Source: Patescibacteria group bacterium (GTDB lineage: Bacteria > Patescibacteriota > Patescibacteriia > S139-126 > S139-133). From it: a stretch of DNA of 64,000 bases. The stretch lies in NCBI GenBank assembly GCA_049604715.1, contig JBMYTV010000001.1, forward strand, positions 91,610-155,609. Reading direction: 5' to 3'. The translations under genes and the position numbers were made by a program. Of this stretch, positions 32,342-45,983 are shown in pieces (within the stretch, counting starts at the first letter, position 1; the number at the start of each line of letters is the position of its first letter). The notes below the pieces were generated by a model that was not told the origin of the DNA, searched no databases, and worked only from the letters and a program-made list of their open reading frames with translations.

Positions 32342-33052
32342 ATGAAAGAAGCGCCGTTTACTATCAAGAAAGTGTTTTCCTATAGCTGGACAATGTATAA
32401 ACATCATATTGGCTTTTTGGTTTTGTTGATGCTCGCACTGTTTGGGGTATCAATGTTCTTTGGGTGGGTACAAGGTTTAGCAGAGGATTCACAGATGCTA
32501 TTGATGTTGATTACTGGTATTAGCTGGCTCGTTCAGATAATCATAGGTATGATTTTAATACATGTTGTTTTGCAACTGCTTGATACTCACAAGGCCAGCT
32601 TGCAGACAGCAACAGAAAGCTTTGTATCATTTTGGCGGTATTTAGGAGGTGTTTTGTTGACGTCGCTTATTGTGACTGCTGGCTTCTTTTTGCTTATTAT
32701 TCCTGGTGTATATCTAGCTATACGTCTACAGTTTGTTCAGTATTTGATTATAGATAAAAATTACAGCCCACTGGATGCGATTCAGAAAAGTTTTGAGCTC
32801 ACTCGTGGGGTTGTATTTGAACTGTTTTTGCTGGCAATTGTTTTCTTCGTGATCAACGTGGTCGGAGCAGCGCTCTTTGGTCTGGGCTTATTTGTGTCTG
32901 TCCCTCTTACACTTCTTGCAACCGCTTATGTATATCGTTTGCTTCTAGGTATGTCACCTGAACTTCCGGTCGTAGCAGAGGCTAGTATAGGGCCAGCTGT
33001 GCAGAGTCAAACCCCACCAGGGCAATTGTCTGACCATTCAGAAAATCAGTAA
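32342..33052 (+). CDS. hypothetical polytopic membrane protein
   Basis: 236 aa. About 5 TM segments, with a Pro/Gln-rich C-terminal tail. Confidence 0.55.
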   Translation: MKEAPFTIKKVFSYSWTMYKHHIGFLVLLMLALFGVSMFFGWVQGLAEDSQMLLMLITGISWLVQIIIGMILIHVVLQLLDTHKASLQTATESFVSFWRYLGGVLLTSLIVTAGFFLLIIPGVYLAIRLQFVQYLIIDKNYSPLDAIQKSFELTRGVVFELFLLAIVFFVINVVGAALFGLGLFVSVPLTLLATAYVYRLLLGMSPELPVVAEASIGPAVQSQTPPGQLSDHSENQ

Positions 33053-33066
33053 AAGGTTGTCTTGTC

Positions 33067-33702
33067 ATGGCAAATAAACTTTTTTCATTTTTGATAGTTA
33101 GTGCCACCGTAGTTTTGTTACTCGGTGGTTCTGTGTTTTTAGTTATATATGATTATCAGATTTACGAACCGCTTTACTCAGATTCTTTCAAGACAGGTAA
33201 GGGTGATCAGCAGTTTTTAACTGAGCTTGCTGTTGATTATATTAGTGGTATTGATGTGTCGCTGTTTCCGTTTGAACGAGAGGAAAAAGATCATTTAGAT
33301 GATGTTCGAGCTTTGGTTAGTACAACTGAAGTTGTTACAGTAGTTTCGTTAGTGTTGCTCATATTACTTATTCCTTATGCCTGGTTTTATAAAAAGGAAA
33401 AGAGGCGTGTACTTTGGGCAGTGTGGTATGGTAGCTTATCAGTTACAGTCCTCGCGCTTGTGGTTGTATTTGGGGCGCTTGTACAGTTTGATAATTTCTT
33501 TACTAATATTCATTATGTCTTATTTCCACAAGGTGGATGGGCATTTGGAGAAAATAGTTTACTTTTGCTCTTGTTCCCGCAAGAGTTCTTCTTCTACATG
33601 TTTGAGCGTATTGTCATGTTTATGCTAATGGGAGGTGCGCTTGTGTGGTTGGTTGTGTCTACGGTTCTTGGGCTTAATCCAGAAAAATTTCGATTGAATT
33701 GA
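33067..33702 (+). CDS. integral membrane protein, DUF1461/TIGR01906-like
   Basis: N-terminal TM. FPFEREEKDHLDDVRALV resembles the conserved hM-DV block of that family. C-terminal TM helices. 211 aa. Confidence 0.5.
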   Translation: MANKLFSFLIVSATVVLLLGGSVFLVIYDYQIYEPLYSDSFKTGKGDQQFLTELAVDYISGIDVSLFPFEREEKDHLDDVRALVSTTEVVTVVSLVLLILLIPYAWFYKKEKRRVLWAVWYGSLSVTVLALVVVFGALVQFDNFFTNIHYVLFPQGGWAFGENSLLLLLFPQEFFFYMFERIVMFMLMGGALVWLVVSTVLGLNPEKFRLN

Positions 33703-34934
33703 TTTTTATGCGTGAAAAACCTTCGCTTTGGCTTATTTTTTTTATTTCATTCCTTGACCTTCTAGGTATCAGTATAATCATACCGATATTGGCACCCATG
33801 TTTTTAGGTGACAATTCGTTTTTGCCAGCAGATGCTTCATTTGGTACTCGTACGGTTATATTGGGATTTTTATTAGCAATTTACCCGCTAGCTCAGTTTT
33901 TTAGTGCTCCACTGCTTGGGGCGTGGTCAGATAAGATAGGTAGGAAGCCAGTGCTCGCACTAGCTTTTACTGGCACTATGTGTGCGCATATTATGGTGGC
34001 GCTGGGTATTGTACTGGGTAATTTGCCCCTTTTGTTTTTCGCGCGGTTGCTTGATGGATTCACAGGAGGAAACATTTCGGTTGTGCATGCAATTACAGCT
34101 GATATTTCAAAGCAGAAACAAAGAGCAAAGAATTTTGGGTTAGTTGGTATGGCATTTGGTGCAAGTTATGTAATAGGACCCTTTTTTGGTGGAAAATTAT
34201 CTGACCCAGGTGTAGTTGAGTGGTTCACATATGCTACTCCGTTTTGGGTTGCGTCAGCTTTGTCAGCTTTGACAGTTGTGCTTACACTTACTCAACTTAG
34301 AGAAACACTACTCGAGAAAAAGAAGCAATCTGACTTTTCTTTGTTGTCAGGGCTGAAGAGTATTTATAGAGTGATGAGCAGTGCAAAAACTAAGCTTATT
34401 ATGTGGATTTTGTTCCTGCATGCAGTTGGATTTACTTTTTTTACTCTTTTTTATCAGGTTATTTTGGTGGAAAGCTTTGACTTCACCCCAAATGATATTG
34501 GTCAGTTTTTTGCTTATATTGGCGTATGGATAGTAATAACACAGGGTCTTGTTAATCCATGGGTCAGCAAGAGGCTATTGCCAAGGAATATACTGCCTTA
34601 TTCAATCATTGCTCTGGTGGTCCTGTATATACTATTATTATTTATAGAGGAAGCGTGGTTGATTTATGTGCTTGGGCCGTTTATAGCGCTGGCGCAGGGC
34701 ATGACTATACCGAGTCTGCTCGCTACTGTATCAAATAGCGTGAGTGGCGCTGAGCAGGGTGAGGTGCTAGGTGTACAGCAGTCGCTGACATCAATTGCAG
34801 TTGCACTTCCACCAGTGATAGCAGGTTTTCTAGCAATTATACACATATCACTTCCGCTTATAGCTGCGGCGATGATAACAGCGATTGGCTGGACATTATA
34901 CACATTTATTTATCGTACAAAAACTCATTTTTAA
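33699..34934 (+). CDS. MFS transporter
   Basis: 12 predicted TM segments. Motif-A-like GAWSDKIGRKPVL between TM2 and TM3. 411 aa. Confidence 0.85.
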   Translation: MIFMREKPSLWLIFFISFLDLLGISIIIPILAPMFLGDNSFLPADASFGTRTVILGFLLAIYPLAQFFSAPLLGAWSDKIGRKPVLALAFTGTMCAHIMVALGIVLGNLPLLFFARLLDGFTGGNISVVHAITADISKQKQRAKNFGLVGMAFGASYVIGPFFGGKLSDPGVVEWFTYATPFWVASALSALTVVLTLTQLRETLLEKKKQSDFSLLSGLKSIYRVMSSAKTKLIMWILFLHAVGFTFFTLFYQVILVESFDFTPNDIGQFFAYIGVWIVITQGLVNPWVSKRLLPRNILPYSIIALVVLYILLLFIEEAWLIYVLGPFIALAQGMTIPSLLATVSNSVSGAEQGEVLGVQQSLTSIAVALPPVIAGFLAIIHISLPLIAAAMITAIGWTLYTFIYRTKTHF

Positions 34935-34945
34935 CTTATTATTAT

Positions 34946-35605
34946 ATGTCTATGAAAAAAGAAAGGCTCGATGGGTTGGCTGATGGTATATTTGCCATTG
35001 TTATTACGTTACTTGTAATTGAGATTCGAGTACCTGAGCTTACTGGTATTGTTACCAACAAAGAACTTTGGCATGAGCTTGTTGAACTTTACCCATTGTT
35101 CTTAAGTTATTTACTTAGTTTCGCACTGCTATTTACTTATTGGCGAGCTCACAACTACTTAATGTCATTTTTTGCAAAAAATATTGATACACCCCTTTCA
35201 AATTTAAATGCCATTTTTTTCTTCTTTGTGGCGTTAGTCCCGTTTTCTTCTCACATGCTTGGTCGTTACAGTGATACACAGGTTGGTGTACTTATACTTG
35301 GTGGTAATACGATTTTGATTGGTCTGTCACTTATCTTGATGCGTCGTTATATCATAAAGGCAAAAACAATCGAGAATGTAGAGTTTACATCACGAAGCTT
35401 GCGTCATGGGACTATTCGTACAGTTTTTCCAACACTGTGTGCTGTTGTTGCAATAGCGCTTAGTTTTGCAAACATACAGGTAGCGCTCTTTATATTTACC
35501 ATTGCAGTATTATTCAACTTAATCCCGTACTCAGCTGATTTAGTTGATAAAATATTTTTCCGCAAAGCAATAGTTGCTGAGCAGTCAGATAATTCACCTA
35601 CATAG
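34946..35605 (+). CDS. TMEM175/DUF1211-family potassium channel-like membrane protein
   Basis: N-terminal signature RLDGLADGIFAIVITLLVIEIRVP (RxxxFSDGVFAIAITLLVLE consensus). 6 TM segments. 219 aa. Confidence 0.75.
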   Translation: MSMKKERLDGLADGIFAIVITLLVIEIRVPELTGIVTNKELWHELVELYPLFLSYLLSFALLFTYWRAHNYLMSFFAKNIDTPLSNLNAIFFFFVALVPFSSHMLGRYSDTQVGVLILGGNTILIGLSLILMRRYIIKAKTIENVEFTSRSLRHGTIRTVFPTLCAVVAIALSFANIQVALFIFTIAVLFNLIPYSADLVDKIFFRKAIVAEQSDNSPT

Positions 35606-35611
35606 TTTTTT

Positions 35612-36484
35612 ATGGCTCTTGATCCATACACAGCAGTTTGGGTTTCACACACTTCTATAAGTGATTTTTTGGCCTGTCCAAGAAGTTATTTTTTAAAAAA
35701 CGTGTATAAGGATCCAAAGACAGGGAATAAGATTCAGGTTATGTCACCACCACTGGCGCTTGGTCAGGCTGTGCATGAGGTTTTAGAGAACTTGTCAGTT
35801 GTACCAACAGATAAGCGTTTTGACACTCCGTTGATTGAGAAATTTGAGGAATCCTGGAAAAGAGTTGCCGGCAAAAAGGGTGGTTTTTGGGATAAGGACA
35901 CTGAGCATAGGTATAAGCAACGTGGCATTGATATGATCAAAAGGGTTCAGGCACATCCGGGTGTTTTGGCAAAAAAGGCAGTAAAGATTAACATGGATTT
36001 GCCGCATTTTTGGCTTTCAGAAGAAGAGGAGATTATTTTGTGCGGCAAGATTGATTGGCTCGAATACAATGAAGAAAATGATTCAGTGCATATTGTAGAC
36101 TTCAAAACAGGGAAATCAAGACAAACTCAAGAGTCACTGCAGCTTCCAATATATATGCTACTAGTAAATGAGTGTCAAAAAAGAGAAGTTGAAGCTATTA
36201 GTTATTGGTATCTTGAGTCAGCTGACGAGCCAGAAACACAGCCTTTGCCAGATCCGGATCAGTCACGCAAGAAAGTTCTTGATATTGCACGGCGCGTGAA
36301 AGTCGCCAGAAAGCTAGAAAAGTTTGATTGTCCGCATAATGGATGCTCAAACTGTGCGCAGTACGAGGCTGTATTGAGAGGAGAAGGGGAGCATGTTGGG
36401 GTGAATGCATTTCGCCAGGACGTATACATTGTGAAGCCAAAAGCAAAATTATCAGACAGTGAGGAGGATAGTCGGATATTATAA
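35612..36484 (+). CDS. PD-(D/E)XK nuclease with Cas4/AddB-like Cys cluster
   Basis: Motifs GKIDWLE, IVDFKTGK (D..E-K core) and QLPIYM (Q-h-x-x-Y). Cys22 plus C-terminal CPHNGCSNC gives the 1+3 Cys arrangement of Fe-S nuclease domains. 290 aa. Confidence 0.7.
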   Translation: MALDPYTAVWVSHTSISDFLACPRSYFLKNVYKDPKTGNKIQVMSPPLALGQAVHEVLENLSVVPTDKRFDTPLIEKFEESWKRVAGKKGGFWDKDTEHRYKQRGIDMIKRVQAHPGVLAKKAVKINMDLPHFWLSEEEEIILCGKIDWLEYNEENDSVHIVDFKTGKSRQTQESLQLPIYMLLVNECQKREVEAISYWYLESADEPETQPLPDPDQSRKKVLDIARRVKVARKLEKFDCPHNGCSNCAQYEAVLRGEGEHVGVNAFRQDVYIVKPKAKLSDSEEDSRIL

Positions 36485-36485
36485 C

Positions 36486-37151
36486 ATGCATCAAGAGTAC
36501 GACATTAGGCGGAGTAAACGCAAAACATTAGCACTGGAGATTGATGCCAGTGCTCGTTTAATAGTACGCGCGCCTATGCGTCTTGCGCTTCGTGATATAG
36601 AGGCTTTTATTCGACAAAAAAGAACATGGATACGAAAAGGTCTTCAAGAAATGGAAAAGGTAAAGCAAGTCCGAGAACGAGAGCGTTTTTTTGAAGGAGA
36701 CACAGTGTTGTATTTAGGAAAAGAGCATACAGTTCGTTTTGATGATGTGAAAAGATGTACCATAGTAGATGGTATTTTTATTCTGCCGATCGCCGTACAA
36801 GGTCAGGCACAAAAGTATGTTCACATGTGGTATGCCAAACAAGCTCGTTTGTATATAGCGCCGCGGATTCGTGAGCTGGCAAGTGTTTTGGGGTATAGGA
36901 TTACAGGTATTAGGATAACATCAGCAAAAACGCGCTGGGGTTCATGTAGTGCTAAGGATACGATCAGTATCTCGTGGAGATTGCTGCAAGCACCGTCTAA
37001 AGTTATAGAGTATGTGATAATACATGAACTCGTTCATACTATACATAAAAATCACAAAACTAGATTTTGGCAACGAGTAGCAAAGCACTGCCCTGAATAT
37101 AAAAAGCATGTGAAGTGGCTAAGGGATAATAGTCATGTTTTGGGAATGTAA
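36486..37151 (+). CDS. DUF45/YgjP-family zinc metallopeptidase-like protein (M48-like)
   Basis: HELVHTIHKNHKTRFW (HExxH...NH..FW) signature. Start at the internal Met 1 nt after the nuclease stop. 221 aa. Confidence 0.75.
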   Translation: MHQEYDIRRSKRKTLALEIDASARLIVRAPMRLALRDIEAFIRQKRTWIRKGLQEMEKVKQVRERERFFEGDTVLYLGKEHTVRFDDVKRCTIVDGIFILPIAVQGQAQKYVHMWYAKQARLYIAPRIRELASVLGYRITGIRITSAKTRWGSCSAKDTISISWRLLQAPSKVIEYVIIHELVHTIHKNHKTRFWQRVAKHCPEYKKHVKWLRDNSHVLGM

Positions 37152-37181
37152 AAACCCTACTCATTTTGAGCAGGGACGTTG

Positions 37182-37717
37182 TTATCTTTTGTAGCAAATA
37201 TTACCTTCACCAGTACCTCTTTTGGCAGAGGTTTTATACCATTGGTGTGAGAGTTTCTGTACATTGATTCTTAATCTTCCGGCGATGGTGGACAGGTCCG
37301 TGCTGGTGAGACAGACTCCAGAATATTGTGTGGACGGTTTTTGTCTGAGTTCACTGACCAGGCGGTCGATCAGTTTGGAGCTCGCGTTTCGTTTGAGTGA
37401 TCTCCCTCGTTTTTTTTGGCGCCGGCGAAGCAGAGAGTATCCGATTGCGCTAAGTAGCAGCGTCAGTTTTGAGTCCGGTTTCAGTTGAAGCATAATCTAC
37501 TCCTTTACAGGTTTGCCATTTTAACTTTTACAGTTTGTTCACTTCTGGAGTGAGACAGCTTTACTCTTCTGATGCCAAGTAGCTGTGCGAGGCGTTCCAG
37601 CTCTGGGTTGGTTAATTTTTTACCACTGTACTTGTGGTCATTGCCTGGGTAAGTTTCCAACCTTTCAGCTAGAAGCAAGATTCTATCTCTTCCTTTCATC
37701 TTGGTAAATCCTTTCAT
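37182..37717 (-). pseudogene. GC-rich degenerate gene remnant (two adjacent short ORFs in different frames), possibly mobile-element derived
   Basis: 70-aa and 103-aa minus-strand ORFs separated by 11 nt. Basic HTH-like N-terminus (KGRDRILLLAERLE...LTNPELERLAQLLGI). Local GC is clearly higher than the flanks. No intact family recognised. Confidence 0.3.
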
Positions 37718-37866
37718 TGCTTAGTTTAACTTGTGAAGTTGCATTTACGAGAAAATTATCTCGACATGCTTTACTATACTGATATTTTATTAAACTGTCA
37801 ATATAAAGTTCACAATCTGTATTTGTTTCCGTTTTTGTGCTATAGTTAGCTTAAATAAGCTATTTT

Positions 37867-38202
37867 ATGGTAGAGGCATTGCAACCATTTTTAATATTCG
37901 TTTATTTACTGGGTATGGCAGCGCTACTTGGCGGCTTAATCGCTCAGTGGGGTGAGCGAACATATCATGTAGAACGAGCGCTATTGTATGGCGTTTTTTT
38001 GCAGCTTATCGCAAGTGTTGTTTATGTGTTCACAAGTAGTGTGGCAACAGAGCTGTTATCTCATATGCTCAGAGTGATAGTGCTATGTGCTATTATAGTT
38101 ATTTTGCTTGTGGCAAAACAAAGAAAATTTTCATGGAACGCATACCATAGCGTACTTGTGTTGGTAATAGCAGAGCTTGCTATAGGGGTATTTTGGTTTT
38201 GA
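37867..38202 (+). CDS. small membrane protein
   Basis: 111 aa, three hydrophobic helices. Confidence 0.45.
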   Translation: MVEALQPFLIFVYLLGMAALLGGLIAQWGERTYHVERALLYGVFLQLIASVVYVFTSSVATELLSHMLRVIVLCAIIVILLVAKQRKFSWNAYHSVLVLVIAELAIGVFWF

Positions 38203-38276
38203 TAGGTTAATTGACACTACAGTTGAAGAGTAATATACTACCTCTCTTAAGTCTAAAGGGGAGTTATTTATTTGCT

Positions 38277-39746
38277 ATGAAGGTATTAGTAGTAAAAAAC
38301 TATAAAGAGCTGTCGCAACGTGCGGCAACTTTTTTATTAAATCATGTTGCGCTTGAGCCACGCAGTGTATTTGGTTTGGCCACAGGTTCAACTCCAGAAG
38401 GAATGTATAAAGAGATTATAAATGCTACAAAAAATTTGTCTTATGACTTTTTTCATTGTAAAACTTTTAATCTTGATGAGTATGTGGGGTTAAACCCCGA
38501 GCATGAGCAAAGCTATCATGCGTACATGAACAGAGAGCTCTTTGATCATATACAGATTCAGAAAGAAAATATTCATATTCCAGAAGGACACAAGAATAAT
38601 CTTGAAAAACAGTGCGAGGCTTACGAGAGACATTTAGAACGACACCAGGTAGATGTTCAGGTATTGGGTTTGGGGGCTAATGGGCATATTGGTTTCAACG
38701 AGCCAGGTAGCGCGTTTACATCTCGCACACGTGTTGTTGATTTAACTCCTGCAACCATCAAGGCAAATTCTCGGTTTTTTGATACCAAAGCTTCTGTACC
38801 AAAAAAAGCTATAACAATGGGCATAGCGACCATTATGCAGGCAAAGAAGATAGTGATCATTGCAAATGGTGAGCATAAAGCGCGAGCAGTAAGACAAATG
38901 GTAGAAGGAAAGGTGAGTACAGCATGCCCTGCAAGTATTTTGCAGAACCATCCAGATGTGACCGTTATAGTTGATAGAGCGGCAGCTAAGCTTTTGAAAA
39001 ATGATTATTCAGATCATAAAAACGGTTGGACTGACGTGCGTATTCTAAACAAAAACGTGTTACCGCAATACAAAAATGTGTTAGTGGTATCACCGCATCC
39101 AGATGACTCAGCAGTTAGCAGTGGTGCAACTATTAGGGCTCTATTTGAGCAAAACAATGTCACTATCATGGCGATGACGTCAGGGTATCGTGCTGCTATA
39201 CCCGGAGCTGACAAAAAGAAACGTATTGCTGCCCGAAAAAAAGAAGCTTTGGCTGAGGCAAAAAAGCTGCAAGCAGATTTGTTGTTCCCAGAGTTTCATT
39301 TTTATGACCAAGGAAGAAAAAAATGGAAGCAAGATCTTAAGAAATTCGGTAAACTCTGGAAGTCAATCAATCCGTCTGTGGTTATACTTCCGCATCAGTA
39401 TGATGAGCACCCAACTCATAGATATAGCACAGCGCTTGTAGAGGACTATATCAAGCAAGAAAAGGTTAAGCAGTTAGAGCTTTGGTATTATGAGAGTGTC
39501 TGGTCGCAGCATTTGCTTACAAGTATTTCACAAGTCTTTTGTTACAACGAAGAATTGCATGATGTTAAGAATGCTGCAATTAACAGCCATACTAGTCAGG
39601 TAAAGCGAATACCGCTTGTAGAGATTACTGAGAATTTATCTCGTTTTAGGGCTCTTACTATACCTGAGCAGAAGTTTGTAACCTATGGACAAGAGCCTAT
39701 TAACCTAAGTAGTTTTGTAGAGGCGTATCATATAGAGAAAAGGTAA
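38277..39746 (+). CDS. nagB: fusion protein: glucosamine-6-phosphate deaminase (NagB) domain plus PIG-L/LmbE-family N-acetylglucosaminyl deacetylase domain
   Basis: N-terminal ~265 aa: GLATGSTPEGMY, FNLDEYVGL, LGLGANGHIGFNEPGS (NagB/6-phosphogluconolactonase fold). C-terminal ~210 aa: VLVVSPHPDDSAVSSGATI (PIG-L HPDD motif) and further His/Asp metal ligands. Start at the internal Met MKVLVVKNY. Confidence 0.75.
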   Translation: MKVLVVKNYKELSQRAATFLLNHVALEPRSVFGLATGSTPEGMYKEIINATKNLSYDFFHCKTFNLDEYVGLNPEHEQSYHAYMNRELFDHIQIQKENIHIPEGHKNNLEKQCEAYERHLERHQVDVQVLGLGANGHIGFNEPGSAFTSRTRVVDLTPATIKANSRFFDTKASVPKKAITMGIATIMQAKKIVIIANGEHKARAVRQMVEGKVSTACPASILQNHPDVTVIVDRAAAKLLKNDYSDHKNGWTDVRILNKNVLPQYKNVLVVSPHPDDSAVSSGATIRALFEQNNVTIMAMTSGYRAAIPGADKKKRIAARKKEALAEAKKLQADLLFPEFHFYDQGRKKWKQDLKKFGKLWKSINPSVVILPHQYDEHPTHRYSTALVEDYIKQEKVKQLELWYYESVWSQHLLTSISQVFCYNEELHDVKNAAINSHTSQVKRIPLVEITENLSRFRALTIPEQKFVTYGQEPINLSSFVEAYHIEKR

Positions 39747-39784
39747 GTGGTTGATTATTTTTACATTCTCATTCATAATCGCTA

Positions 39785-40960
39785 GTGAAATATATGCAAA
39801 CATCACTAGTTGAACAAATATTTTACTCAAGCAAAGAACTGTTGAATTCTGTCCGAACTGAACATGGTTTTATTGCGGCTGCAGAAAGCGCTGCTTCTCA
39901 AAAAAGAGGATATACAAGTATATTTGGTAGGGACGCTAGCATGTGCGCACTTGCAGGCCTTGTTTCTGAGGACGAGGGGCTAATTGAGGCAGGAAAGCAA
40001 TCTCTTATTACTCTTGCTGAACATGCTTCTGATATTGGTCAGATACCATTTTCTGTAAATACAGAGCGCAAGCTTGTGAAGTACCGAATGCCACAAAGTA
40101 TTGATAGTACTATTTGGTGGCTTTTAACTTTTTGGTTATATACTCAAAAATTATCTGACACATCATTAAAGGCACAGTATTATGCTGCGTTTCAGGAAGG
40201 TATTACTTGGCTTCAAAACCGCATGCAATATGGCTTGCTGGAGGAGGGAGAGGGAGCGGGTTGGGCTGATGAATTACCTCGTAGTGGTATGGTTTTGTAT
40301 ACGAACGCATTGTGGCTTCTCTTTTTAGAGCATATTAAAAGTGCAGAACGTAAAGCTATTTATCATAATTTTCTATACTTTTTTGATTATCATACTGATA
40401 CTGTAAGGGGTTACCCAGAGCTGCAACGTCAGTTCCCAAACTTTAGGAATAATCTCAAGAAGACAAAGCGGAAAAGTCAGACATTTTATGCAAGTGTGTC
40501 ACGGTTTAATTTGAATGAAAGTATAGATGTATTTGGCAACACACTCGCTTGTATATCAGGAGCGCTACCACGTACACGAGAGCGTGCGATTTTAAAAGAA
40601 CTACAGGATGTTGCAGACGAGAGCCCGTTTTTGATTCGAAGTATGCCTGAGCCAGAACGACTTCACCAGGGAATCTTTGAGGCAACATTTCAAAATCGTG
40701 CTTGGCAATACCATAACGCTGGGGTGTGGCCGATGATTGGTGGTTGGTATGTGTATGCGCATGCTAAGGCTGGTAATATGCGAGTTGCTCATGAAGCACT
40801 TGAGAGGCTCGCAGAGGTTAATAGTCTCGAAAAGCATCCATTTCCAGAGTGGATACATGGAAGGACAGGTAAAACTATGGGACTTGATAGGCAAGCATGG
40901 AATGCAGCTGTCTATATACTAGCTTATAAGGCTGTAACCGAGGGTACCTTCTTGGTGTAG
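39785..40960 (+). CDS. (alpha/alpha)6-barrel glycoside hydrolase (GDE_C / GH100 invertase-like)
   Basis: 391 aa. Pattern of Trp/Gly-rich helices (IWWLLTFWLY, GAGWADE, NAGVWPMIGGWYVYA) typical of six-hairpin glycosidases. Assignment by fold resemblance only. Confidence 0.55.
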   Translation: MKYMQTSLVEQIFYSSKELLNSVRTEHGFIAAAESAASQKRGYTSIFGRDASMCALAGLVSEDEGLIEAGKQSLITLAEHASDIGQIPFSVNTERKLVKYRMPQSIDSTIWWLLTFWLYTQKLSDTSLKAQYYAAFQEGITWLQNRMQYGLLEEGEGAGWADELPRSGMVLYTNALWLLFLEHIKSAERKAIYHNFLYFFDYHTDTVRGYPELQRQFPNFRNNLKKTKRKSQTFYASVSRFNLNESIDVFGNTLACISGALPRTRERAILKELQDVADESPFLIRSMPEPERLHQGIFEATFQNRAWQYHNAGVWPMIGGWYVYAHAKAGNMRVAHEALERLAEVNSLEKHPFPEWIHGRTGKTMGLDRQAWNAAVYILAYKAVTEGTFLV

Positions 40961-45703: not shown

Positions 45704-45792
45704 AAAAAAATTATAATAACTTTATACAGTATAGCATGCTGGATTACATTGTGCTGGTACTAAAAAACAACCTCTAAAACGAGATTGTTTTT

Positions 45793-45813
45793 TGGTGGCG
45801 GGGGTGGGATTTT
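45793..45813 (-). repeat. partial duplicate of the 3' end of tRNA-Met (20-nt identity), att-site-like
   Basis: tggtggcgggggtgggattt at 45793-45812 is identical to 45907-45926, which is the tRNA 3' acceptor/T-arm region. Flanking bases are also similar. Confidence 0.6.
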
Positions 45814-45869: not shown

Positions 45870-45900
45870 CATAACACAACAACCTCACTAAAAAGTGAGG
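45870..45900 (-). terminator. hairpin terminator downstream of tRNA-Met (minus strand)
   Basis: cctcact-aaaaa-gtgagg (45883-45900). On the minus strand it is followed by ttgttgtgtt. Confidence 0.55.
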
Positions 45901-45906
45901 TGTTTG

Positions 45907-45983
45907 TGGTGGCGGGGGTGGGATTTGAACCCACGACCTCCAGGTTATGGGCCTGGCGAGCTGCCGGACTGCTCTACCCCGCG
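45907..45983 (-). tRNA. tRNA-Met (anticodon CAT)
   Basis: Manual fold: D-arm GAGC/GCTC. Anticodon stem CCAGG/CCTGG with loop CCCATAA. T-arm GTGGG-TTCAAAT-CCCAC. Encoded CCA. 77 nt. First acceptor pair appears to be C:C in my fold. Confidence 0.8.

What the first reader, a model, noticed from the sequence alone, without database searches (positions are those of the whole stretch)
35612..37151. Translationally coupled PD-(D/E)XK Fe-S nuclease and DUF45/YgjP-type metallopeptidase pair
A Cas4/AddB-like nuclease (D/E-K core motifs plus Cys22 and C-terminal CPHNGCSNC) ends 1 nt before a protein with the HExxH...NH..FW signature of the DUF45/WLM-like zinc peptidase family. That peptidase family is frequently embedded in restriction-modification and other defence loci. 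There are no CRISPR repeats or cas genes here. A GC-rich degenerate gene remnant follows, so this could be a small stand-alone defence or DNA-processing module acquired horizontally.
Basis: partly seen in the sequence, partly recalled or inferred. Interest (0 to 1): 0.5.

Follow-up and report, generated by a model that had tools for sequence, protein, structure and literature searches.

The report
Core CPR nuclease with accessory zincin
The two genes are real and correctly identified, but the nuclease is a core chromosomal gene of Patescibacteria and the metallohydrolase downstream of it is an optional neighbour seen in only a few close relatives, so this is an ordinary operon tail and not a horizontally acquired defence module.

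Summary
Both genes exist as described. ORF1 (35612-36484) is a single-domain RecB/AddB/Cas4-type PD-(D/E)XK nuclease. It has the D148/D163-x-K165/Q177..Y181 motifs and four invariant Cys. ORF2 (36486-37151) is a YgjP-like (PF01863) zincin, starting 1 nt after ORF1's stop.

The window is a Patescibacteria (CPR) chromosome. The nuclease is a core CPR gene:
- It occurs in at least 575 GTDB species at about 55-65% identity.
- Its flanks are syntenic with close relatives.
- No copy was found in viral contigs.

YgjP is accessory. It follows the nuclease only in the window and in the two contigs that carry its closest complete relatives (L089, L090). It is missing from that slot in seven close relatives. 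One-nucleotide gaps are common in this genome.

No CRISPR, cas, pAgo or R-M partner is present, so defence is unsupported.

The "GC-rich remnant" is a compositionally foreign two-gene cassette of small paralogous proteins. The cassette is conserved, again convergent with a YgjP gene, on one other contig.

One residual point of interest remains. YgjP-like genes lie within 6 kb of this nuclease, on the same strand, in 11 of 80 CPR species. In some they are coupled to a Pif1-like helicase. This hints at a DNA-repair role.

The parts
35612..36484 (+). Stand-alone RecB/AddB/AdnA/Cas4-type PD-(D/E)XK nuclease, 290 aa. It has a 1+3 Cys set (C22, C240, C245, C248), catalytic D148, D163 and K165, a Q177..Y181 motif, and a disordered acidic tail ending ...EEDSRIL-COOH.
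   Evidence: PF12705 at E 2.7e-25. Invariant residues in A1. AF2 model with pLDDT 90.2. Best PDB matches are ACE1, AdnA, AddB and Dna2 nuclease domains. 5418 homologues, the best of them at about 60% identity, from across Patescibacteria.
36482..36488 (+). Junction TAA-c-ATG: the nuclease stop and the YgjP start are separated by 1 nt. The nearest Shine-Dalgarno-like run (GAGGAGG, 36461-36467) lies 18 nt upstream of the ATG.
   Evidence: Sequence. The same 1-nt geometry occurs in L090. Such gaps are common in this genome.
36486..37151 (+). YgjP-like (DUF45) zincin hydrolase, 221 aa. The N-terminal beta-rich half has no structural match. A long helix follows, then a C-terminal minigluzincin catalytic domain carrying H180-E181-x-x-H184, N189-H190 and F194-W195.
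37155..37175 (.). Nine-pair hairpin between the convergent YgjP gene and the small-ORF cassette. It is terminator-like for the minus-strand cassette, where a T-run follows the stem.
37182..37493 (-). Small ORF of 103 aa, the second gene of the minus-strand cassette. It is Arg/Lys-rich near the N-terminus (RRRQKKRGR) and has a C-terminal KRGTGEGNI motif. It is a compositional outlier (GC 0.47, GC3 0.47).
   Evidence: 45% identical (E 4e-27) to a 102-aa ORF in the same position on L088 (A4). No Pfam, PHROG, PADLOC or NCBIfam hit. No hit in the 5.8-billion protein search. GC3.
37505..37717 (-). Small ORF of 70 aa, the first gene of the cassette. Its true start is probably the internal Met at 37699, giving 64 aa. 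It shares the motif YSGxxLTxx(E/D)LxxxAxxLxIxxxKLSH with the 103-aa ORF.
   Evidence: One homologue among 1.84 billion representatives (P0241, 47% identity, E 6e-6). On L088 that homologue is followed after 11 nt by the 102-aa ORF. Paralogy with ORF-103 at E 2e-4. Alignment A5.
37773..37801 (-). Promoter-like site TTGACA-17-TATAGT (11 of 12 matches) upstream of the small-ORF cassette.
   Evidence: This is a consensus match only.

Best explanation
This is the tail of a compact housekeeping operon on a Patescibacteria chromosome. The gene order is DUF975, Lit, MFS, TMEM175, nuclease, YgjP.

Gene 1 is a vertically inherited, CPR-wide, single-domain Fe-S PD-(D/E)XK nuclease of the AddB/AdnA/Cas4 type. 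By analogy with its closest solved relatives (ACE1, AdnA, AddB), I infer the following:
- The four Cys hold a 4Fe-4S 'iron staple'.
- Single-stranded DNA or an unwound DNA end is threaded to a buried Mg2+ site made by D148, D163 and K165 and is cut there.
- It has no helicase domain, so it must act on ssDNA, flaps or ends opened by another enzyme during replication or repair.
- Its disordered acidic tail ends in a nearly invariant [DE]-S-x-[IV]-L-COOH and probably docks it on a partner.

Gene 2 is an accessory YgjP-like zinc hydrolase with a minigluzincin catalytic domain. It occupies the slot just downstream of the nuclease only in a shallow sub-lineage. It is co-transcribed and probably translated by re-initiation at TAAcATG.

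The pair is not a defence system, and the nuclease was not horizontally acquired.

Shown: the domain identities, the conservation and synteny pattern, and the distribution of the pair. Inferred: the substrates, the Fe-S cluster, co-translation and any functional link.
For: Identity of the genes:
-.

CPR origin and core status of the nuclease:
- NCBI names the window's own proteins 'RecB family exonuclease' and 'M48 family metallopeptidase' of a 'Patescibacteria group bacterium'.
- At least 575 GTDB species encode a relative. The top 80 are 55-65% identical and are titled Woese-, Shapiro-, Levyi-, Roizman-, Beckwith-, Dojka-, Magasanik-, Pacei- and Saccharibacteria.
- No relative was found in IMG/VR.
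- The window is collinear over 30-46 kb with L082 and L002.
- Recurrent neighbours in 80 species are housekeeping or replication-repair genes: RsuA, FtsEX, an RNase_H-fold exonuclease (immediately downstream in 7 species), RarA/MgsA and Pol IV. DnaE lies next to it in L173.

YgjP is accessory:
- It is absent downstream of the nuclease in L082, L002, L003, L171, L172, L173 and L174.
- It is present downstream in L089 (nuclease C-terminus 72% identical, YgjP 53%, 14-nt gap) and in L090 (YgjP 46%, 1-nt gap, followed by the homologue of the window's 111-aa gene).
- Tight spacing is generic in this genome.
- YgjP has the genome's own GC and GC3 (0.41 and 0.33).

No defence context:
-.

Mechanistic analogy:
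- The ACE1, AdnA and AddB descriptions in PMC12094033.
Against: - No biochemical or expression data exist for either protein.
- 'Core' rests on a capped pattern scan, not on a per-genome presence/absence census.
- A YgjP-like gene lies within 6 kb of the nuclease, on the same strand, in 11 of 80 other species and in at least 6 arrangements. By my estimate random placement of one gene in a roughly 1-Mb genome would put it there in about 1% of genomes. So the adjacency may not be functionally neutral.
- Solo Cas4-family enzymes have been proposed as stand-alone immune factors (cited in PMC12094033). A defensive side-role cannot be formally excluded.
Confidence: 0.62

Rival explanations
1. The pair is a true two-component DNA-repair module. 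The YgjP-like zincin acts on protein attached to or bound on DNA, for example DNA-protein crosslinks as SPRTN and Wss1 do, or on the nuclease or its partner. The Fe-S nuclease then processes the freed DNA end. In some CPR lineages a Pif1-like SF1B helicase would supply unwinding, giving a split Dna2-like arrangement.
For: - The pair is kept at 1-14 nt spacing in three genomes whose YgjPs have diverged to 46-53% identity.
- YgjP-like genes lie within 6 kb, on the same strand, in 11 of 80 other species and in at least 6 arrangements. They fall into three or more divergent YgjP subgroups that are only 25-33% identical to the window's.
- YgjP ties for the second most frequent neighbour family of the nuclease.
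- YgjP is directly coupled to a PF05970 PIF1 helicase in L033 (1-nt gap) and in L059 (overlap). All three loci that carry this helicase also carry YgjP.
- The nuclease N-terminus weakly matches PF08696 Dna2 (E 6e-4).
Against: - Seven close relatives of the nuclease lack YgjP at this site, so the nuclease works without it.
- The genes between the two in other lineages are unrelated: PAP2, TraX, a DUF192-like ORF identified by eye, and an uncharacterised 237-aa ORF.
- SprT-like and WLM Pfam scores fall below their cut-offs (22.6 against 25.6, and 18.9 against 26).
- Outside CPR the same YgjP subfamily sits in unrelated contexts, for example downstream of a roughly 1,280-aa ORF that reads by eye as purL and upstream of a glutaredoxin-like ORF in 41 of 80 metagenome loci. 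None of those 80 loci has the nuclease.
- How many CPR genomes carry YgjP at all is unknown, so the enrichment is not calibrated. The 11 loci are not phylogenetically independent.
Confidence: 0.25
2. This is the first reader's reading: a small stand-alone anti-phage or anti-plasmid module made of a solo Cas4-like nuclease and a DUF45 peptidase, acquired horizontally.
For: - PADLOC Cas4, Aga_Cas4-like and DruK models hit the nuclease domain (E 7e-11 to 1e-2).
- The best structural match is the Argonaute-associated Cas4-family enzyme ACE1 (E 4e-9, TM 0.61).
- From my own recollection, not tested here: DUF45/COG1451 genes occur in type I R-M loci.
- The adjacent small-ORF cassette is compositionally foreign.
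Against: - The nuclease is conserved at about 60% identity across CPR classes in syntenic chromosomal positions. That is the opposite of the patchy, fast-evolving pattern of defence genes.
- No copy was found in viral contigs.
- There is no pAgo, cas, Druantia or hsd partner among the neighbours.
- TIGR00372 Cas4 scores below its cut-off.
- YgjP has no PADLOC hit and has the host's own composition.
- There is no CRISPR array.
Confidence: 0.06
3. YgjP belongs functionally with the convergent small-ORF cassette rather than with the nuclease. The model is a zincin plus small DNA-binding proteins, as in ImmA/IrrE protease-repressor pairs. The three genes would have arrived together as one insertion next to the nuclease.
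For: - YgjP (70% identity) and the 64-aa + 102-aa cassette occur in the same convergent arrangement on L088.
- The cassette has its own promoter-like site and terminator.
- The cassette is a GC3 outlier (0.42 and 0.47 against 0.33 +/- 0.04).
- The two small proteins share a helix-turn-helix-like motif.
- IrrE appears as a weak Foldseek match (rank 13).
Against: - L090 has nuclease-YgjP without the cassette.
- YgjP has the host's composition while the cassette does not, which suggests separate histories.
- The HTH assignment is only a reading of the sequence. There is no Pfam hit.
- Only two instances are known, and there are none in IMG/VR.
Confidence: 0.07

Closest known systems
Nuclease domains of AddB and AdnA, and the stand-alone Cas4-family enzyme ACE1 (PDB 9iac/9iab, 6ppr, 4cej; PMC12094033)
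   Same: PD-(D/E)XK core with D...D-x-K and QxxxY motifs. One N-terminal plus three C-terminal Cys for a 4Fe-4S 'iron staple'. The predicted fold matches (Foldseek E 4e-9 to 1e-4, TMq 0.42-0.61). Like ACE1 it is about 270-290 aa with no helicase domain.
   Different: Only 13-20% sequence identity. It is not fused to or encoded with a UvrD-like helicase, as AddAB and AdnAB are, and it is not next to a pAgo, as ACE1 is. It carries a family-specific disordered acidic tail ending [DE]-S-x-[IV]-L-COOH. It is near-ubiquitous in one bacterial superphylum rather than accessory.
CRISPR-associated Cas4 (TIGR00372 / PF01930)
   Same: Same superfamily, the same Cys pattern and the same catalytic motifs. 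PF01930 scores above its gathering score (26.0 against 22.7).
   Different: TIGR00372 scores 35.4 against a cut-off of 65. There is no CRISPR array or cas gene in 64 kb. The protein is about 100 aa longer than typical Cas4.
YgjP/DUF45 family (PF01863; E. coli YgjP)
   Same: Full-length match (profile positions 1-206 of 207, E 2e-56). HExxH...NH...FW signature. About 220 aa. Stand-alone.
   Different: Here it is operonic with a nuclease. From my recollection of UniProt P42597, not checked here, E. coli YgjP is annotated as a slow UTP pyrophosphatase from an in-vitro metabolomics screen. Nothing here tests the substrate.
Minigluzincins (proabylysin 4jiu, projannalysin 4jix, selecase 4qhf) and the DPC proteases SPRTN and Wss1
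   Different: YgjP has an extra ~120-residue N-terminal half with no structural match. Pfam SprT-like and WLM scores fall below their cut-offs. No DNA-binding module was identified.
Dna2 (Fe-S PD-(D/E)XK nuclease fused to an SF1B helicase)
   Same: Same nuclease type (weak PF08696 hit, E 6e-4; Foldseek 5eaw at E 3e-4). In L033, L034 and L059 a Pif1-like SF1B helicase is encoded 1-5 genes upstream.
   Different: The proteins are separate. There is no helicase in this window. The helicase is present in only 3 of 80 species' loci.

Membership tests
PD-(D/E)XK RecB/AddB/Cas4-type nuclease (PF12705 PDDEXK_1) | Profile match above the curated cut-off | tested here: met
   90.2 bits against 22, E 2.7e-25, profile positions 2-241 of 247.
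PD-(D/E)XK RecB/AddB/Cas4-type nuclease (PF12705 PDDEXK_1) | Catalytic D ... (D/E)-x-K and QxxxY motifs conserved | tested here: met
   GKID148W, IVD163-F-K165TG and Q177LPIY181 are invariant in 24 sequences. The pattern equals the RecB GxID...DYK motif, which is established knowledge.
PD-(D/E)XK RecB/AddB/Cas4-type nuclease (PF12705 PDDEXK_1) | 1+3 cysteines that bind a 4Fe-4S cluster | tested here: met
   C22, C240, C245 and C248 are invariant. Actual cluster binding cannot be tested in silico.
PD-(D/E)XK RecB/AddB/Cas4-type nuclease (PF12705 PDDEXK_1) | Fold | tested here: met
   AF2 model with pLDDT 90.2. Foldseek matches to ACE1, AdnA, AddB, RecE, Dna2 and Cas4.
CRISPR-associated Cas4 | Equivalog score (TIGR00372) | tested here: not met
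   35.4 bits against a cut-off of 65.
CRISPR-associated Cas4 | CRISPR array or cas1/cas2 nearby | tested here: not met
   No array or spaced repeats in 64 kb. The ORFs from 32342 to 40960 were scanned against Pfam and none is a cas gene. The rest of the window was not scanned for cas genes.
Argonaute-associated Cas4 (ACE1/ACE2) | Operon with a long-A pAgo | tested here: not met
   The flanking genes are TMEM175 upstream and YgjP downstream. In 80 related loci no recurrent large neighbour of pAgo size was seen.
YgjP-like / DUF45 (PF01863) | Full-length profile match above the cut-off | tested here: met
   191.7 bits against 26, profile positions 1-206 of 207.
YgjP-like / DUF45 (PF01863) | HExxH plus the downstream NH..FW signature | tested here: met
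   H180, E181, H184, H190 and W195 are invariant. N189 and F194 are at least 90% conserved.
SprT-like / WLM DPC proteases | Pfam SprT-like or WLM above the cut-off | tested here: not met
Type I R-M-associated DUF45 | Adjacent hsdR/hsdM/hsdS | tested here: not met
   No such genes occur in 32-41 kb of the window or around the nearest homologues.
Known defence systems (PADLOC-DB v2) | All components of a system present | tested here: not met
   Only domain-level hits to the nuclease. There are none to YgjP or to the two small ORFs.

The most novel reading that the evidence does not exclude
In Patescibacteria, YgjP-like zincins have been repeatedly placed next to the superphylum's core Fe-S nuclease, and in some lineages coupled to a Pif1-like SF1B helicase. 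Together these would form a previously unrecognised bacterial repair module in which a SPRTN/Wss1-like protease clears protein from DNA before a split Dna2-like helicase-nuclease resects it. This would give the large, uncharacterised DUF45/YgjP family its first physiological role.
Probability: 0.15. Interest if true: 0.6.

Novelty: new member of a known kind. Interest (0 to 1): 0.25.

Why it matters
As it stands, the finding corrects a tempting misreading. A Cas4-like nuclease next to a DUF45 peptidase looks like a defence island but is housekeeping in CPR bacteria.

Two things may be worth a specialist's time:
1. CPR genomes are minimal. A stand-alone Fe-S nuclease kept at about 60% identity across the whole radiation, with a conserved C-terminal docking peptide, is probably an important and unstudied part of their replication and repair toolkit.
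2. The loose but recurrent linkage of YgjP-like zincins to this nuclease and to a Pif1-like helicase is one of the few contextual clues to the function of the DUF45/YgjP family.

Tried and rejected
- Structured RNA in the GC-rich stretch: Rfam found nothing at E <= 1 in 35000-39000. Fold z-scores were -1.25 and -0.12. Rejected.
- tRNA or tmRNA there: none.
- Mobile-element boundaries around the 36485-37866 insertion: only short chance-level direct and inverted repeats. No support.
- Homologues of the 103-aa ORF in the 5.8-billion protein set: none. The cassette was found only through the 70-aa ORF.
- Viral origin of the cassette or of the nuclease: no relatives in IMG/VR.
- Metagenome scan for close YgjP relatives: the peptide patterns chosen returned only hits at 43% identity or less, mostly one marine clade. 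None had the nuclease. This was useful as a negative control but gave no new pair-clade members.
- Organism names for the top YgjP hits: the listing of cluster members returned none.
- Literature on DUF45/YgjP function, on COG1451 with R-M systems, and on the CPR nuclease: nothing usable in the held library.
- My greedy ORF picker missed the nuclease and YgjP in L059 and the nuclease in L017, because spurious longer ORFs overlapped them. I corrected L059 by hand.
Full report
**1. What is at the coordinates**

ORF1 (35612-36484, +, 290 aa) and ORF2 (ATG at 36486, ending at 37151, +, 221 aa) are present. They are separated by one base, TAA-c-ATG.

ORF1 matches PF12705 PDDEXK_1 (E 2.7e-25) and, above its gathering score, PF01930 Cas_Cas4. 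ORF2 matches PF01863 YgjP-like over the whole profile (E 2.1e-56). It has sub-threshold SprT-like and WLM hits.

In a 24-sequence alignment of ORF1 homologues these residues are invariant: C22, C240, C245, C248, D148, D163, K165, Q177 and Y181. That is the canonical RecB-type GxID...(I/V)DxK...QxxxY catalytic set plus the 1+3 Cys of the AddB/Cas4 'iron staple'.

In 26 YgjP homologues H180, E181, H184, H190 and W195 are invariant, and N189 and F194 are nearly so.

No CRISPR array or spaced repeat exists in the 64 kb.

**2. Organism and status of the nuclease**

NCBI names the window's own two proteins as products of a 'Patescibacteria group bacterium' MAG, on a 208.7-kb contig.

The nuclease has 5418 homologues at E <= 1e-3. 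The best 120 are 58-69% identical and full-length.

A capped scan of one genome per GTDB species found at least 575 species that encode it. The top 80 are 55-65% identical. They carry titles of Woese-, Shapiro-, Levyi-, Roizman-, Beckwith-, Dojka-, Magasanik-, Pacei- and Saccharibacteria. Several 'Gammaproteobacteria' and 'Pseudomonadales' titles are evidently placeholder taxonomy of binned CPR MAGs. No relative was found in IMG/VR viral contigs.

The window is collinear over about 15 kb (30-46 kb) with its nearest relatives L082 (nuclease 69% identical) and L002 (65%). The shared order is DUF975, Lit, TMEM175, nuclease, 111-aa membrane protein, GH100-like, AI-2E transporter and onward.

This is the signature of a vertically inherited core gene. 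It is not the signature of a horizontally acquired or defence gene.

Across 80 species no neighbour is fixed. The recurrent ones are housekeeping or replication-repair genes:
- RsuA-type pseudouridine synthase, in 12 loci.
- FtsE and FtsX, in 11 and 7.
- An RNase_H-fold exonuclease, in 10 loci and directly downstream in 7.
- RarA/MgsA, in 8.
- Pol IV, in 7.

DnaE lies next to the nuclease in L173.

**3. Structure and likely mechanism of the nuclease**

The AF2 model is confident (pLDDT 90.2) except for residues 279-290. Its best PDB matches are as follows:
- The stand-alone Argonaute-associated Cas4-family enzyme ACE1: E 4e-9, TM 0.61.
- The nuclease domains of AdnA, AddB and Dna2.
- CRISPR Cas4, more distantly.

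For those enzymes the Fe4S4 cluster is structural or acts as an end-recognition wedge. ssDNA is threaded through a narrow channel to the D-DxK/Mg2+ site. ACE1, which lacks a helicase, cuts only ssDNA (PMC12094033, read). By inference the CPR enzyme does the same on ssDNA, flaps or ends opened by another protein.

A family-specific feature is the disordered acidic tail. It ends [DE]-S-x-[IV]-L-COOH: L at the last position in 117 of 120 homologues, I/V/L at -2 in 120 of 120, and S at -4 in 102 of 120. It looks like a docking peptide for a partner. The partner is unknown.

**4. Is the pair conserved?**

There are two answers.

(a) Among close relatives of the nuclease (63-69% identity), seven have no YgjP downstream: L082, L002, L003, L171, L172, L173 and L174. 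In several the nuclease is followed directly by the homologue of the window's 111-aa gene. Relative to them, the window carries a 1382-bp insertion (36485-37866) that holds YgjP and the 'remnant'.

(b) The closest relatives of the window's YgjP do sit behind the nuclease.
- L089: the upstream ORF is the nuclease's C-terminal 166 residues, 72% identical and reciprocally closest to the window's. It stops 14 nt before a 53%-identical YgjP.
- L090: an ORF ending ...EFVGVGTYNQDLYLV...DSRIL* stops 1 nt before the likely ATG of a 46%-identical YgjP. The homologue of the 111-aa gene follows.
- L088: a fourth contig carries a 70%-identical YgjP but ends inside it.

So the pair exists in a shallow sub-lineage and has been kept there while YgjP diverged to about 50% identity.

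The next YgjP hits are 38-44% identical. They come from non-CPR organisms (named examples are Saccharicenans, Heimdallarchaeaceae and Lachnospiraceae) and sit in unrelated, non-defence contexts. In 80 metagenome YgjP loci none has the nuclease. Forty-one of them share a context that I read by eye from ORF translations as purL, YgjP, glutaredoxin.

**5. A wider, looser link**

In 11 of the 80 GTDB species a YgjP-like gene lies within 6 kb of the nuclease, always on the same strand. It is never immediately downstream, and there are at least six different arrangements:
- Directly upstream in L059.
- One or two unrelated genes away in L029, L034, L046, L065 and L074.
- Further away in L010, L011, L019, L020 and L033.

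These YgjPs are only 25-33% identical to the window's and fall into three or more groups on a rough NJ tree. The intervening genes are unrelated: PAP2, TraX, a DUF192-like ORF identified by eye, and an uncharacterised 237-aa ORF.

In L033 and L059 YgjP is directly coupled (1-nt gap, and an overlap) to a PF05970 PIF1-type SF1B helicase. All three loci that carry this helicase also carry YgjP. The window has no such helicase.

For one gene in a roughly 1-Mb genome, random placement within +/-6 kb would be about 1%. That figure is my estimate. Fourteen per cent is therefore enriched. It ties YgjP with FtsE for the second most frequent neighbour family of the nuclease, behind RsuA. However, the loci are not phylogenetically independent, and the prevalence of YgjP in CPR genomes is unknown. 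I treat this as a lead, not a finding.

**6. YgjP itself**

The model has pLDDT 93.5. Only the C-terminal ~100 residues match known structures:
- M48/M56 peptidases and YbeY.

The N-terminal half has no match. No NCBIfam or PADLOC model hits the protein. Its GC (0.41) and GC3 (0.33) equal the genome's means (0.404 +/- 0.026 and 0.332 +/- 0.040). There is therefore no compositional sign of recent transfer.

**7. 'Translational coupling'**

The 1-nt gap is real, and the only Shine-Dalgarno-like run lies 18 nt upstream of the ATG. Re-initiation is therefore plausible.

But of 41 same-strand neighbour pairs in the window, 6 have exactly a 1-nt gap, 9 have a gap of 1 nt or less, and 18 have a gap of 15 nt or less. 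The nuclease is itself only 6 nt from the unrelated TMEM175-like channel gene upstream. Spacing alone says nothing about a functional link.

**8. The 'GC-rich degenerate remnant'**

The stretch 37275-37500 is 50-53% GC. It contains two intact minus-strand ORFs:
- ORF-70 (37717-37505). Its start is probably the Met at 37699.
- ORF-103 (37493-37182), 11 nt downstream.

A TTGACA-17-TATAGT site at 37801-37773 precedes them. A 9-bp hairpin with a T-run at 37175-37155 follows them.

ORF-70 has a single homologue among 1.84 billion representatives (P0241, 47% identity, E 6e-6). On its contig (L088) that homologue is followed after 11 nt by a 102-aa ORF that is 45% identical to ORF-103 (E 4e-27). It is then followed, convergently, by the 70%-identical YgjP.

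The two small proteins are paralogues. They share the motif YSGxxLTxx(E/D)LxxxAxxLxIxxxKLSH. They have no match in any library. They are GC3 outliers at 0.42 and 0.47.

L090 has YgjP without the cassette. The cassette is therefore a real, rare and probably recently acquired two-gene unit of unknown function. It is neither a pseudogene nor a structured RNA.

**9. Verdict**

The best explanation (confidence about 0.62) is an ordinary operon tail. It combines a core CPR Fe-S ssDNA/end-processing nuclease with an accessory YgjP-like zincin that is co-transcribed in one sub-lineage.

A true nuclease-zincin(-helicase) repair module is a live alternative (about 0.25). A defence module is unlikely (about 0.06). 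A YgjP-cassette unit is also unlikely (about 0.07).

Both genes are new members of known, already annotated families. Interest is low to moderate.

Noticed in passing
window 37182-37801 (minus strand); L088 70-584: A two-gene cassette of small paralogous proteins (about 64 aa and 103 aa, 11-nt gap) has its own promoter-like site and terminator hairpin. It is a GC3 outlier. It is conserved at 45-47% identity on one other contig, where it is again convergent with a YgjP gene. It matches no known family and is absent from IMG/VR.
   Followed up: partly
window 36446-36481 (nuclease residues 279-290); P0001-P0120: The nuclease family ends in a disordered acidic linker plus a nearly invariant C-terminal peptide [DE]-S-x-[IV]-L-COOH (the last residue is L in 117 of 120). 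This looks like a short docking motif for an unknown partner such as a clamp, SSB or helicase.
   Followed up: partly
L033 1751-3767; L059 3656-5642; L034 1038-2402: In some CPR species a YgjP-like gene is directly coupled (1-nt gap or an overlap) to a Pif1-type SF1B helicase (PF05970, E 2.8e-34) a few genes upstream of the same Fe-S nuclease. The arrangement recalls a split Dna2.
   Followed up: partly
L-series loci, +1 position after the nuclease (e.g. L077 2057-2662): An RNase_H-fold (PF13482) exonuclease-like protein of about 200 aa lies in 10 of 80 nuclease loci. It is the immediate downstream neighbour in 7 of them. That makes it the most frequent immediate downstream neighbour, more so than YgjP.
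   Followed up: no
window 38211-39746: A 511-aa fusion of a glucosamine-6-phosphate isomerase/6-phosphogluconolactonase domain (PF01182) with a PIG-L/LmbE deacetylase domain (PF02585). It is absent from the syntenic slot in L082 and is replaced by two other genes in L002 and L172.
   Followed up: no
window 33699-34934: An MFS transporter gene is inserted between the Lit-like and TMEM175-like genes, compared with the syntenic relatives L082 and L171. Like the YgjP slot, this shows that intergenic positions of this conserved array accept lineage-specific genes.
   Followed up: no
window 45774-45812 and 45888-45926: A 39-nt direct repeat (82% identity, 114 nt apart). Its second copy overlaps the 3' end of the minus-strand tRNA-Met at 45907-45983. 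It may be a partial tRNA duplication or the scar of an old integration.
   Followed up: no
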